DNA of 64,000 bases. Source: a virus. Taxonomy: Duplodnaviria > Caudoviricetes. The stretch is from positions 1,107 to 65,106 of the IMG/VR virus record IMGVR_UViG_3300031852_000001; one strand, written 5' to 3'. Below the pieces are notes generated by a model that worked only from the letters and a program-made list of their open reading frames with translations, did not search any database and was not told the DNA's origin. The position numbers were made by a program, and so were the translations under genes. Shown in pieces: positions 39,737 to 41,763 of the stretch. Positions within the stretch are counted from its first letter, which is position 1, and the number at the start of each line of letters is the position of its first letter.

Positions 39737-39832
39737 TACTTCCTGGCGAGGGAGTACAAATGGCTGAATCGTTTGGTGCGATTCGGTAAGAATTGAAGAG
39801 GCTCACCCCGGCAAGGGTGGGCCTCTTTCTTT
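39737..39832 (+). ncRNA. Candidate antisense RNA to repA leader
   Basis: Extended -10 TGCTAACAT (39722-39730); terminator hairpin 39796-39827 plus T-tract. Confidence 0.4.
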
Positions 39833-40049
39833 ATGCGGCTGGCAAGTCAAGCTCCTGTTGTGTGTCTGTGTGACCCGGTGCCGGCATTGGCATCAGATAG
39901 GAAAGTCCAACATATTCCGAAAGGATAGCAGAGATATAGTCCCCATACGGGACGCCTGCTGCCTTCGCTCGGGCGCGGATAATAGCGCCTACCTCCACTG
40001 GAGGCCTGGTCATCATAGGGTCGCGGTGACCCTTGAATTTCGGTGCCAT
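39831..40049 (-). CDS. CopG/RHH-like small regulator upstream of repA
   Basis: KGHRDPMMTRPP...GVPYGDYISAIL pattern seen upstream of actinobacterial plasmid rep genes. Confidence 0.6.
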   Translation of the reverse strand: MAPKFKGHRDPMMTRPPVEVGAIIRARAKAAGVPYGDYISAILSEYVGLSYLMPMPAPGHTDTQQELDLPAA

Positions 40050-40181
40050 ACAGCCATCTAACACCCTGTTGCAGCAACAGTATGGATTCCCTCGGCGTGT
40101 CGGTTGACCTGCGTGTTTGTTAAGTTCTGAGATGCGTGGAATAGACTATGCGGTAAGTAAGCGTAGAAAGAGGGGGAGCCC

Positions 40182-40427
40182 ATGCCATACCGAACCAAGT
40201 GCGTAAAGTGCCCAAAGGACACTGCCAAGGATGCGGCGTTGAAGTGGACGCTGTTCAATGGTCAGGTATCGGTCATCGCTCCGCTCTGCGTTGAGCACAT
40301 GGCTCCGCTGACTGAGCTGGTAAACATTCTCGGCCCCCGGCCGCTCCTGCAGACCGGCGCGATGGAGGTTGTGACCACCCGCAAGGTGAAGGTCAGCCCC
40401 ATCGAGGGCTGGGTCAAGCCTGAGTGA
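40182..40427 (+). CDS. Small Cys-rich hypothetical protein
   Basis: CxxC and LCVEH; RBS GAGGGGG. Confidence 0.6.
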   Translation: MPYRTKCVKCPKDTAKDAALKWTLFNGQVSVIAPLCVEHMAPLTELVNILGPRPLLQTGAMEVVTTRKVKVSPIEGWVKPE

Positions 40428-40930
40428 TGGAAGAGGGTAGCCCGGACTGGATTGAGGCTGAGGTAAACAAGGCCATCGCCAACATGGAGCGGGAGATTGC
40501 CGCTGGCATCTTCCTCCCGCCCGCGCCGTCGCCGTCAGTGACGGCCCAAATGCGGAAGCTGCGCGGCGACTACGGCCCCCGCTACTACAACATGGATGGC
40601 AAGCCCATCGACATGATGGAGTGGGCTGCGATGTACGAGCGGAACAATCGCCATGTTGGGGACACCTGCGTCAAATTCCGGGGGCACACCTACCGCGTGT
40701 CCACCGTCCTGCTGGGGCTGGACCATTCGTTCATGGGTGGCCCGCCGCTCATCTTTGAAACGATGGTGTTTGAGGATGGCGACATGGGAGGCTTGGACTA
40801 CATGCGCCGCTACTCCACCAAGGAGCAAGCCCGCAAGGGCCATCGTGAGGCTGTCCGATGGGTGCGCGGGATGATTCGGGAAACAACCATGCCGGCCAAG
40901 CCCCTCATCCACAATGGCCACAAGCCATGA
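40424..40930 (+). CDS. Hypothetical phage protein ending KPLIHNGHKP
   Basis: VSTVLLGLDH..PPLIFETMVF family motif. Confidence 0.7.
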   Translation: MMEEGSPDWIEAEVNKAIANMEREIAAGIFLPPAPSPSVTAQMRKLRGDYGPRYYNMDGKPIDMMEWAAMYERNNRHVGDTCVKFRGHTYRVSTVLLGLDHSFMGGPPLIFETMVFEDGDMGGLDYMRRYSTKEQARKGHREAVRWVRGMIRETTMPAKPLIHNGHKP

Positions 40931-41073
40931 AGCGGACAGTTACCGTCCACCTAGCCACGCTCGGCGTAACTATTCACGGGCTTACCATGCGTGAGTTCAA
41001 GCGACTCAAGACCCGGTATCAGCGCGAGGTTCTGCGTCGGAAGCCGCTTATTCACAACGGCCACAAGCCATGA
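40927..41073 (+). CDS. 48-aa protein ending KPLIHNGHKP
   Basis: ATGA overlaps at both ends. Confidence 0.65.
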   Translation: MKRTVTVHLATLGVTIHGLTMREFKRLKTRYQREVLRRKPLIHNGHKP

Positions 41074-41195
41074 GCCGCAAGGGCTGTTACATGATCGTGG
41101 ACTGGGATGCCAGCTACACCGTTTGCAAGAAGTGCGGGTTTGTCCGCCGCGCATGGTGGCATAAGCCACTGATCCACAAGGGGGGAAAGCCATGA
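41070..41195 (+). CDS. 41-aa Cys protein ending KPLIHKGGKP (not in ORF track)
   Basis: Manual translation; ATGA overlaps. Confidence 0.65.
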   Translation: MSRKGCYMIVDWDASYTVCKKCGFVRRAWWHKPLIHKGGKP

Positions 41196-41383
41196 AAGAC
41201 ATGATTGGGGATGCTATCTCCTGCACGCTGTGTGTGATCGCTGCGGCCACGCTTGCGCCGCTGTCCGCGACGATGCGGGACAACGGGGCTCCGGACTGGC
41301 TTGCCCTCACATTCCTGGTGATAGCCGGCGTTTCCGTCCTTACCGGCGCATTCTTCGCCTGGCGATTGGCGCGGCGAGCATGA
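41192..41383 (+). CDS. Membrane protein
   Basis: Two TM segments. Confidence 0.65.
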   Translation: MKDMIGDAISCTLCVIAAATLAPLSATMRDNGAPDWLALTFLVIAGVSVLTGAFFAWRLARRA

Positions 41384-41763
41384 CGAGCCTGAGCCCCCTG
41401 GTCATCCGTAAGCGTCTCGGCCGCGAGCACTGGGGACCGCCCATGCCATTCGGTGATGCCGGTTGGAGGCTGGATCACCGCGTGCTGAAGGGCCGGATCA
41501 TCGTCACCGAATCCGAGTTGACCAAGATTGGTGCCCCGGCAGGGCAGGAGTGGATCCACGCATCCATAAGCTGGGATGACGACCTGCCCACCTACTCCGA
41601 TCTGACGATGCTGCACAAGGCTGTTTGGGATAATGGCTACGCCTACCAGGTGTTTGCCCCGCCGTCACAGCATGTGAACATTGCCAAGCACGCACTCCAC
41701 CTTTGGGGACTGTCGGACGGCAGTCCCATTCTCCCTGAGTTCGGGAAGTTCGGCACGATATGA
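41380..41763 (+). CDS. Conserved hypothetical phage protein
   Basis: WIHASIS, HVNIAKHALHLW motif. Confidence 0.7.
   Translation: MTSLSPLVIRKRLGREHWGPPMPFGDAGWRLDHRVLKGRIIVTESELTKIGAPAGQEWIHASISWDDDLPTYSDLTMLHKAVWDNGYAYQVFAPPSQHVNIAKHALHLWGLSDGSPILPEFGKFGTI

What the first reader, a model, noticed from the sequence alone, without database searches (positions are those of the whole stretch)
40424..41195. Three unrelated tandem proteins share the C-terminal tag KPLIH(N/K)G(H/G)KP-stop
Seen: tags at the ends of the 40424, 40927 and 41070 ORFs. Codons differ synonymously (CCC CTC ATC; CCG CTT ATT; CCA CTG ATC), suggesting selection on the peptide rather than the DNA. Each ends CCA-TGA overlapping the next ATG, and two of the downstream genes lack a clear RBS. 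Established: Pro-stop slows termination. Inference: a nascent-peptide re-initiation or coupling signal, or a portable degron or targeting tag for a common host partner.
Basis: partly seen in the sequence, partly recalled or inferred. Interest (0 to 1): 0.78.

Follow-up and report, generated by a model that had tools for sequence, protein, structure and literature searches.

The report
Portable C-terminal tag of Arthrobacter phages
Three unrelated neighbouring early proteins of this Arthrobacter-type phage end in the same ten-residue peptide, which also ends at least 35 unrelated small proteins of related phages and prophages and is conserved as a peptide, so it behaves like an address label whose reader is unknown.

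Summary
ORFs 40427-40930, 40927-41073 and 41070-41195 end KPLIHNGHKP, KPLIHNGHKP and KPLIHKGGKP. These are the only three copies in the complete 65-kb phage (0 expected by chance), the protein bodies are unrelated, and each TGA overlaps the next ATG.

The tag is not private to this phage. A motif [KR][PQ]-L-[IL]-H-[NK]-G-x-K-P ends 58 non-redundant ORFs in 35 unrelated body clusters, in phages and prophages of Arthrobacter, Pseudarthrobacter and Paenarthrobacter. There are usually 1-2 copies per genome, at most 5. Every carrier family examined keeps it, in particular the homologues of all three window ORFs.

Synonymous sites are at codon-bias level, so selection acts on the peptide. The 3' half also carries an ordinary Shine-Dalgarno sequence for the overlapping downstream gene (GGA and AGG codons enriched). 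The two NGH tags of the window have none.

The Pro-stop/re-initiation idea is not supported: about a fifth to a quarter of tags are followed by 1-19 further residues. No host chromosomal gene outside prophage clusters, Pfam, PHROG or NCBIfam family, PDB chain or paper holds the motif, and this scan had not noted it before.

Best reading (about 0.5): a short linear docking or degron motif read by one common partner, probably a host protein. No partner was identified.

The parts
40182..40427 (+). First gene of the rightward early operon (81 aa, Cys/His-rich). It has a strong SD and no tag. Context only.
   Evidence: SD pairing -12.0 kcal/mol. Homologues sit at the same place in L006 and L008.
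40427..40930 (+). ORF1, 167 aa. It belongs to a large uncharacterised phage family with the core VSTVLLGLDHSF..GPPLIFETMVF. Residues 158-167 are the tag.
   Evidence: AF2 mean pLDDT is 89, about 70 over the tag, with a tight turn at N163-G164.
40898..40930 (+). Tag 1, KPLIHNGHKP plus TGA. The TGA shares ATGA with the ORF2 start. No SD for ORF2.
   Evidence: Homology with the related contigs L006 and L008 breaks at or just after this stop.
40927..41073 (+). ORF2, 48 aa. A conserved small protein whose three homologues all carry the tag, as KGG variants.
41041..41073 (+). Tag 2, KPLIHNGHKP plus TGA, overlapping the ORF3 ATG. It differs from tag 1 at 4 synonymous bases. No SD for ORF3.
41070..41195 (+). 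ORF3, 41 aa. A divergent member of the Arthrobacter phage Kukla gp77 family ([C/H]..CxxC..tag).
41163..41195 (+). Tag 3, KPLIHKGGKP plus TGA. AAG GGG GGA doubles as the SD for the next gene.
   Evidence: (-10.9 kcal/mol).
41192..41383 (+). Downstream 63-aa hydrophobic (membrane-type) ORF, translated from the SD that lies inside tag 3. No tag.
41380..41763 (+). DUF7694 gene, where synteny with L006 and L008 resumes. It marks the right edge of the variable slot that holds ORF2, ORF3 and the membrane ORF.

Best explanation
The shared ending is a portable short linear motif, [KR]-[PQ]-L-[IL]-H-[NK]-G-x-K-P, optionally followed by a few basic residues. It sits on the flexible C-terminal end of many unrelated small, basic early proteins of phages and prophages of Micrococcaceae (Arthrobacter, Pseudarthrobacter, Paenarthrobacter).

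Shown:
- It is conserved as a peptide while its synonymous sites have randomised.
- It is inherited stably within each carrier family.
- It is found on at least 35 unrelated bodies.
- It occurs only in phage-derived genes.
- Its 3' half is additionally shaped by the ordinary need for a Shine-Dalgarno sequence and an ATGA/GTGA overlap for the next gene.

Inferred:
- The peptide folds as a short extended stretch (L-I-H) followed by an Asn/Lys-Gly turn and K-P.
- It docks into one pocket of a common partner, most probably a host protein of this bacterial lineage. That would let a phage plug any small protein into the same machine, or mark it for the same protease (degron).
- New carriers arise when recombination at gene ends places a different body in front of an existing tag-plus-junction.
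For: 1. Peptide-level selection.
- Tags 1 and 2 differ by 4 synonymous changes only.
- In 1,638 between-genome tag pairs, third-base identity at same-residue codons is 0.49. That is about what codon bias alone gives (about 0.45 by hand from the background).
- L, I, H and P2 codons follow background usage.

2. Conservation without pattern bias.
- Among the 120 best ORF1 homologues found through the body, 45 carry the motif: L 96%, G 100%, K 100%, P 98%.
- All 3 ORF2 homologues and all ORF3-family members keep it.

3. Portability.
- 58 non-redundant tagged ORFs fall into 35 body clusters.
- None has a Pfam, PHROG or NCBIfam match.

4. Lineage restriction.
- In the genome scan, the matches that end an ORF of GC-rich DNA are all Arthrobacter or Pseudarthrobacter. 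The rest are short-frame, mostly low-GC matches taken as chance.
- Named protein hits are Arthrobacter, Paenarthrobacter and Arthrobacter phages Kukla and AbbyDaisy.
- In four host genomes the only significant hits are 1-3 per genome, seven of the eight in three tight clusters of two or three. IMG/VR classes matching records as proviruses.

5. Flexible end. In the ORF1 model (mean pLDDT 89) the tag scores about 70, has no regular structure, and H162 and H165 are bridged around N163-G164.

6. Tolerance of short extensions fits an internal linear motif rather than a signal read at the stop codon.
Against: - No partner was identified. No gene recurs next to tags in more than 12 of 64 loci.
- Most genomes have only 1-2 tagged proteins. 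That is fewer than in the classic cases where many proteins dock on one hub.
- 52 of 58 tagged genes overlap the next ORF by 4 bases, against 53% background. Some link to the gene junction is therefore real and is not explained by docking alone.
- Within-genome tags are slightly more alike at the DNA level (22.9 against 21.4 of 30, permutation p = 0.0045). Copying contributes to the spread.
- In Cys-containing carriers the tag His may simply be a zinc ligand.
- Nothing here measures binding, stability or localisation.
Confidence: 0.5

Rival explanations
1. Nascent-chain signal. Inside the ribosome, the last ten residues ending in Pro slow termination at UGA, so the ribosome re-initiates efficiently at the overlapping AUG.
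For: - 52 of 58 tagged genes share NTGA with the next ORF, and CCA is used for the last Pro in 64% against 21% background.
- The invariant residues G, K and P lie within 4 residues of the end, and 10 residues is about the length of tunnel between the peptidyl-transferase centre and its constriction (own knowledge).
- The two NGH junctions of the window and those of L006 and L008 have no SD.
- Pro-stop is known to slow termination (own knowledge: Hayes, Bose and Sauer 2002).
Against: - 12 of 58 tags, and 13 of 45 in the ORF1 family, are followed by 1-19 more residues.
- Kukla gp77 ends KPKH-TAG and does not overlap the next gene.
- Most tags already carry an SD of normal strength: mean -8.4 against -8.2 kcal/mol at ordinary overlaps.
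- Only 1-2 junctions per genome use the tag, although about half of all early junctions overlap.
- The CCA preference follows simply from needing ATG.
Confidence: 0.07
2. Nucleic-acid anchor. The basic tail (with G, K/R and P) lies in a DNA groove or on RNA, like an AT-hook, and gives small Zn-ribbon or other early proteins extra affinity.
For: - Carriers are small (median 74 aa) and basic (K+R 17% against D+E 9%), and 14 of 35 have 2 or more Cys.
- A subclade of the ORF1 family extends the tag with V/N-G-R-P-T-x-R-K, which contains the AT-hook core G-R-P.
Against: - The residues that never vary (L3, G7, K9, P10, plus H5 and the I/L at 4) are not those of an AT-hook.
- Arg at position 8 is present in only about 40% of tags.
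- A generic DNA anchor would not be expected to be confined to phages of one bacterial family.
Confidence: 0.15
3. Gene-junction cassette. The 30 bases plus ATGA are a piece of DNA that spreads by recombination because it supplies a ready translation start for the next gene (or serves as a recombination joint). The peptide would be a passenger.
For: - Homology with L006 and L008 stops at or just after the ORF1 stop and resumes at the DUF7694 gene, so the tag sits at a mosaic boundary.
- GGA is used for Gly7 in 48% against 19% background, and AGG in 14 of 22 Arg8.
- Within-genome tags are more alike.
- Related contigs L006 and L008 encode a YqaJ-type exonuclease, and Kukla encodes RecE/RecT.
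Against: - Synonymous sites are randomised while residues are kept, also in the 5' half, which has no SD role.
- The NGH variants have no SD at all yet keep the peptide.
- SD strength in tags equals that of ordinary junctions.
- Families keep the tag over 40-60% body divergence.
Confidence: 0.08
4. Structural element acting within the carrier itself. The tag folds back on its own protein, for example with His5 as the fourth zinc ligand, and needs no external partner.
For: - The ORF3/gp77 family has only three other conserved ligands ([C/H]6, C19, C22).
- The WCSN...CxxCG[WF]E..DH family would complete a C2H2-like site with the tag His.
- The one tag with K instead of H (L048) has an extra His right after its CxxC.
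- The low-confidence AF2 model puts tag residues 35-37 in a strand.
Against: - The ORF1, ORF2, AYETF and IPPKTRREKR families have no Cys pair.
- 21 of 35 clusters have fewer than 2 Cys.
- An identical ten-residue stretch is not needed to supply one ligand.
- In the confident ORF1 model the tag is not packed on the domain.
Confidence: 0.1

Closest known systems
Acidic C-terminal tails of phage T7 gp2.5 (SSB) and gp4 (helicase-primase), which dock on T7 DNA polymerase, and the C-terminal clamp-binding peptides of T4 gp43, gp33 and gp55 (own knowledge)
   Same: One short peptide at the end of unrelated phage proteins. It is conserved as a peptide and located on a flexible tail.
   Different: This tag is basic with an L-I-H..G..K-P core, not acidic or aromatic. 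The carriers are orphan small proteins, not replisome parts. There are usually only 1-2 per genome. No partner is known.
C-terminal recognition tags of AAA+ proteases (ssrA ..LAA, MuA ..RRKKAI for ClpX) (own knowledge)
   Same: A short portable C-terminal peptide that works on any body. A basic variant (MuA) exists. Timed removal of early proteins would make biological sense.
   Different: There is no sequence likeness. The last residue here is Pro, Arg or Lys rather than hydrophobic. Extensions of up to 19 residues are tolerated. Proteolysis was not tested.
Pro-stop termination pausing and arrest peptides (TnaC, SecM ..RAGP, hCMV uORF2 ..PP-stop) (own knowledge)
   Same: A conserved stretch of about 10 residues ending in Pro directly before UGA in most copies, with Gly and a basic residue close to the end.
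   Different: The distance to the stop is not fixed. The motif sits on functional proteins of up to about 170 aa rather than on leader peptides. No regulated downstream gene is shared.
Start-associated sequences of cluster K mycobacteriophages, and boundary or linker sequences proposed for mosaic phage genomes (own knowledge)
   Same: A repeated element placed just before gene starts, in one orientation, at mosaic joints.
   Different: Those are conserved as DNA in non-coding spacers. Here conservation is at the codon level with free third bases.
AT-hook (R-G-R-P core)
   Same: Gly, a basic residue and Pro in a short basic tail. A true G-R-P follows the tag in one ORF1 subclade.
   Different: The core Arg is not conserved and the hydrophobic L-I-H part is foreign to AT-hooks.

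Membership tests
Shared C-terminal docking tails / short linear motifs (T7, T4, SSB-Ct type) | Same short peptide at or near the C-terminus of proteins with unrelated bodies | tested here: met
   35 body clusters among 58 tagged ORFs. The three window bodies are unrelated.
Shared C-terminal docking tails / short linear motifs (T7, T4, SSB-Ct type) | Conservation acts on the peptide, not the nucleotide sequence | tested here: met
   Third-base identity is 0.49 between genomes, at codon-bias level. Codon use for L, I, H and P2 matches background.
Shared C-terminal docking tails / short linear motifs (T7, T4, SSB-Ct type) | A common partner that binds the peptide | not testable with these tools
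   No recurrent neighbour gene, no PDB chain with the motif, and no complex prediction available.
Termination-stalling / arrest peptides (Pro-stop, TnaC, SecM) | Fixed position of the motif relative to the stalled codon (here the stop) | tested here: not met
   12 of 58 tags, and 13 of 45 in the ORF1 family, have 1-19 residues between the tag and the stop.
Termination-stalling / arrest peptides (Pro-stop, TnaC, SecM) | Ribosome pause at the motif | not testable with these tools
   Needs toeprinting or ribosome profiling.
Bacterial sliding-clamp binding motif (QL[SD]LF / QLxLxL) | Hydrophobic residues at motif positions 4 and 5/6 after Q-L | tested here: not met
   The tag reads Q/P-L-I/L-H-N/K-G. 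Positions 4-6 are H, N/K and G.
AT-hook | Invariant R-G-R-P (or at least G-R-P) core | tested here: not met
   Position 8 is R in 22 of 58 and 19 of 45 tags, and a Lys separates it from Pro. G-R-P occurs only in the extension of one ORF1 subclade.
DNA-level start-associated / junction repeats | Nucleotide conservation independent of codon position | tested here: not met
   Variation is concentrated at third codon positions. The flanks are unrelated.
ClpX-type C-terminal degrons | Tag-dependent proteolysis by an AAA+ protease | not testable with these tools
   No sequence likeness to ..LAA or ..RRKKAI. The function was not assayed.

The most novel reading that the evidence does not exclude
The peptide is a host-lineage-specific address label. 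One protein of Arthrobacter-type bacteria (a protease, or a replication, transcription or translation hub) reads L-I-H-x-G-x-K-P, and phages of this lineage attach the label to any newly acquired small early protein by recombination at gene ends. Label, ribosome-binding site and overlapping start would then travel together as one gene-end module.
Probability: 0.35. Interest if true: 0.75.

Novelty: new variant of a known kind. Interest (0 to 1): 0.6.

Why it matters
Most early genes of actinobacteriophages are orphans with no clue to their function. A ten-residue ending shared by dozens of unrelated orphans gives a handle on them. A single pull-down with the peptide in Arthrobacter globiformis could name the machine that these proteins address, and so assign a working context to whole families at once.

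It is also a clean natural example of two layers of selection on the same 30 bases: a peptide motif, and a Shine-Dalgarno sequence plus start overlap for the next gene. It shows how such a module can move between genes at mosaic joints. If the partner is a protease or an essential hub, the peptide would be a ready-made tag for protein control in Micrococcaceae.

Tried and rejected
- One search used a mistyped pattern (one codon too many), so its zero result is void. The corrected scans are.
- Pfam, PHROGs and NCBIfam found nothing for the three ORFs or for 18 other carriers.
- The tag profile gave no hit against PDB sequences at E up to 10.
- Full-text searches for the motif strings, and for shared C-terminal motifs in (Arthrobacter) phages, gave nothing relevant.
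- Partner search by clustering all ORFs of 64 tag loci: no family is present in more than 12 loci, and those that recur are ordinary early genes such as SSB.
- Downstream genes are unrelated to one another.
- Host mimicry: the tag profile finds no further hit at E below 0.6 in four host genomes beyond the eight that lie 1-3 per genome.
- Fold search of the ORF1 model: best Foldseek E is 0.16 and best VIA Z is 5.8, so no assignable fold.
- The profile search of the 5.8-billion-protein set could only list 11 hits, because a 10-residue motif barely reaches E of 10 or less.
- The promoter/terminator scan of 39.5-43 kb was at chance level.
- Clamp-binding motif and AT-hook were considered and rejected on sequence.

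Full report
**What is in the window**

Reading 39.8-41.9 kb and listing ORFs shows a tightly packed rightward operon. It starts at 40182 with a strong Shine-Dalgarno (SD) sequence.

| ORF | Coordinates | Length | Ending |
|---|---|---|---|
| ORF1 | 40427-40930 | 167 aa | KPLIHNGHKP |
| ORF2 | 40927-41073 | 48 aa | KPLIHNGHKP |
| ORF3 | 41070-41195 | 41 aa | KPLIHKGGKP |

- Each ends CCA TGA, and the TGA shares ATGA with the next start.
- A six-frame regex scan and a degenerate DNA pattern find exactly these three copies in the window. Expectation is 0.00 in 100 shuffles.
- There are exactly three copies in the whole genome. It is a complete 65,106-bp IMG/VR phage record with direct terminal repeats.
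- With the tag removed the three proteins share nothing.
- DNA identity is 22-26 of 30 inside the tag and at random level on both sides.
- Tags 1 and 2 differ at four bases, all synonymous. About 21% of single-base changes in this stretch are synonymous, so by hand four in a row has a chance near 0.002.
- The starts of ORF2 and ORF3 have no SD (pairing -1.5 and -1.7 kcal/mol). Tag 3 (AAG GGG GGA) gives -10.9 for the next gene.

**The tag is not private to this phage**

Homologues of ORF1 were found through the body of the protein (976 at E of 1e-3 or less).

- Down to 42% identity they end in the same motif, for example KQLLHNGHKP, RPLIHNGRKP, KPLIHKGGKP and RQLIRNGGKP.
- Among the 120 best hits, 45 carry it: L 96%, G 100%, K 100%, P 98%, H 80%.
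- More distant homologues lack it. These include L004, L005 and the hits in Rhizobium, Mesorhizobium and Pseudomonas phages.
- All three homologues of ORF2 (76-94% identity) carry the tag, as KGG variants.
- ORF3 is a divergent member of a family that includes gp77 of Arthrobacter phage Kukla. All its members carry the tag.

My first collection scan had a typing error and is void. Corrected scans gave the following.

- The eight-codon core plus TGA retrieved 41 IMG/VR loci.
- The full ten-codon tag without a stop retrieved 19 loci.
- In nearly all GC-rich loci the match is the end of an ORF and is preceded by the unforced residues [KR][PQ].
- Pooled with the related metagenome contigs L006 and L008 and with host loci, this gives 58 non-redundant tagged ORFs. 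They fall into 35 body clusters.
- Carriers are small (median 74 aa) and basic, and 14 of 35 have two or more Cys.
- None of the 18 carriers tested, nor the three window ORFs, matches Pfam, PHROGs or NCBIfam.

**Host lineage**

- In the scan of one genome per prokaryotic species, the matches that end an ORF in GC-rich DNA are all Arthrobacter or Pseudarthrobacter. The other matches are short-frame, mostly low-GC hits taken as chance.
- tblastn with ORF3 finds five Arthrobacter phages plus one unannotated faecal phage record.
- The named hits of the profile search are Arthrobacter, Paenarthrobacter and Arthrobacter phage AbbyDaisy gp93.
- In four host genomes the tag profile finds only 1-3 significant places each. 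Seven of the eight lie in three tight clusters of two or three. The next hits have E above 0.6.
- IMG/VR classes matching records from isolate genomes as proviruses.
- Complete or near-complete tag-bearing phage records have mostly one or two tags, at most five. With three, the window is at the high end.
- Other notes of this scan also call this genome an Arthrobacter-type phage. None mentions this motif.

**Peptide or nucleic acid?**

Two layers of selection are visible.

Layer 1, the peptide:
- In the 5' half (K-P-L-I-H) codon choice equals the background of the carrier genes.
- Over 1,638 between-genome tag pairs, third-base identity at codons for the same residue is 0.49. That is about what codon bias alone predicts, about 0.45 by hand from the background frequencies.
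- The residues are kept while the DNA has randomised.

Layer 2, the SD and start overlap in the 3' half:
- Gly7 uses GGA in 48% of tags against 19% background.
- Arg8 is AGG in 14 of 22 tags.
- The last Pro is CCA in 64% against 21%.
- This is the signature of an SD plus an ATGA overlap for the next gene.
- Its strength is ordinary. Mean pairing is -8.4 kcal/mol in tags against -8.2 at annotated four-base overlaps and -8.5 at other starts of phage Kukla.
- The NGH variant (the window's tags 1 and 2 and the ORF1 homologues in L006 and L008) has none, at -1.85.

The SD layer therefore explains the choice among allowed residues at positions 6-8 (N/K, G, G/R/K). It does not explain the motif itself.

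**Link to the gene junction**

- 52 of 58 tagged genes share NTGA with a downstream ORF of at least 30 codons.
- By my count, 19 of 21 GC-rich loci from the scans that did not force a stop do so as well.
- Background in the annotated right arm of Kukla is 23 of 43. By hand the binomial probability is about 3e-4, inflated by relatedness among loci.
- The downstream genes are unrelated to one another.
- Homology between the window and its nearest relatives L006 and L008 stops at 40930-40936, at or just after the ORF1 stop. It resumes at 41394-41397, the start of the DUF7694 gene. ORF2, ORF3 and the small membrane ORF therefore fill a variable slot.
- Tags within one genome are slightly more alike than tags of different genomes: 22.9 against 21.4 of 30, third-base identity 0.61 against 0.49, permutation p = 0.0045. 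In three prophages the pairs are nearly identical.

My reading is that tag, SD and overlapping start move together as a gene-end module when recombination exchanges the body in front of them. That is how the motif reaches new carriers. Its retention afterwards is due to selection on the peptide.

**Why the Pro-stop / re-initiation idea is not supported**

- 12 of 58 tags are followed by R, RK, RR, KK, KH or RG before the stop.
- 13 of 45 tagged ORF1-family members have 2-19 further residues, for example KP-VGRPTKGKR and KP-TANGRPTARK.
- In a 63-kb relative, ORF1, ORF2 and ORF3 homologues all have extensions.
- Kukla gp77 ends KPKH-TAG, with a 16-base gap before the next gene.
- A signal that must sit in the tunnel when the stop codon is in the A site would not tolerate this.
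- About half of all early junctions overlap, yet only one or two per genome carry the tag.

The idea is not excluded for the copies that do end in Pro-UGA. I give it 0.07.

**Structure**

- The ORF1 family alignment gives a confident model (mean pLDDT 89). The body is four strands packed against a long helix, plus an N-terminal helical part.
- The last ten residues score about 70 and have no regular structure. H162 and H165 are bridged around N163-G164, which is a tight turn.
- No solved structure matches convincingly (Foldseek E 0.16 or worse, best VIA Z 5.8).
- The ORF3-family model is poor (pLDDT 64).
- In the Cys-containing families the tag His would complete a four-ligand zinc site (notebook idea). 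Families without Cys, including ORF1, ORF2 and the AYETF and IPPKTRREKR families, rule this out as the general role.

**Verdict**

The finding is real and larger than reported. It is a lineage-specific, portable C-terminal peptide of Micrococcaceae phages. I did not find it described in the libraries or papers searched.

- Shown: its existence, spread, peptide-level selection, SD overlay, junction association and tolerance of extensions.
- Inferred: it is a docking or degron motif for one common partner, probably a host protein (0.5).
- Rivals:
  - nucleic-acid anchor, 0.15;
  - structural or zinc role within the carrier, 0.10;
  - passenger of a junction cassette, 0.08;
  - nascent-chain signal, 0.07.

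The principle of unrelated phage proteins sharing a C-terminal docking tail is known from T7 and T4 (own knowledge). I therefore class it as a new variant of a known kind, with moderate to high interest because it offers a one-experiment route to the function of dozens of orphan families.

Noticed in passing
window 40427-40897 (body of ORF1): ORF1 belongs to a large uncharacterised phage family: 976 homologues at E of 1e-3 or less, core VSTV[WL]LGLDHSF..GPPLIFETMVF..RYST..A..GH. It has no Pfam or PHROG match. The AF2 model is confident (four strands plus a long helix) but no solved fold matches convincingly. Distant members occur in Rhizobium, Mesorhizobium, Pseudomonas and Dolichospermum phages.
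   Followed up: partly
window 41070-41192; L006:7631-7780; L014; L020; L052; L088:7153-7353: In the ORF3 / Kukla gp77 family only [C/H]6, C19 and C22 are conserved as possible metal ligands, so the tag His would be the fourth. A second family (WCSN..CxxCG[WF]E..DH-KPLIH) would form a C2H2-like site in the same way.
   Followed up: partly
window 39831-40064 (- strand) and L008:9206-9436 (- strand): A conserved 76-77-aa ORF lies on the opposite strand just upstream of the operon start. It has a pattern I would expect of a ribbon-helix-helix type regulator (..RPP.EVG.I.RARA..AGVP.GD.VSAILSEYVGLS.L). It is a possible regulator of the divergent early region.
   Followed up: no
window 40936-41394 compared with L006:7482-7988 and L008:10242-11078: There is a variable cassette slot between the ORF1 stop and the DUF7694 gene. 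Each of the three related phages holds different small genes there, most of them Cys-rich, and all are joined by 4-base overlaps.
   Followed up: partly
L088:3791-4612, L090:3575-4006 and proteins P0021-P0057: A subclade of the ORF1 family extends the tag by a second basic stretch with a G-R-P core (for example ..KPTANGRPTARK). This resembles an AT-hook.
   Followed up: no
L058:1049-1077 and L059:6613-6641: Two MAG contigs (a Pseudomonadota bacterium and a Cypionkella sp.) share the stretch CKPLIHNG[PR]KPVHAWT[TN]RP in very short open frames. It is probably a conserved non-coding or repeat element that matches the pattern by chance.
   Followed up: no
P0125-P0131 (for example Arthrobacter phage AbbyDaisy gp93): A further tagged family of 105-123 aa has the conserved stretch IPPKTRREKR.R.AF.RL before the tag. 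It is present in Arthrobacter and Paenarthrobacter genomes, and the copy in Arthrobacter sp. EpRS71 lies in the tag cluster of G001.
   Followed up: no
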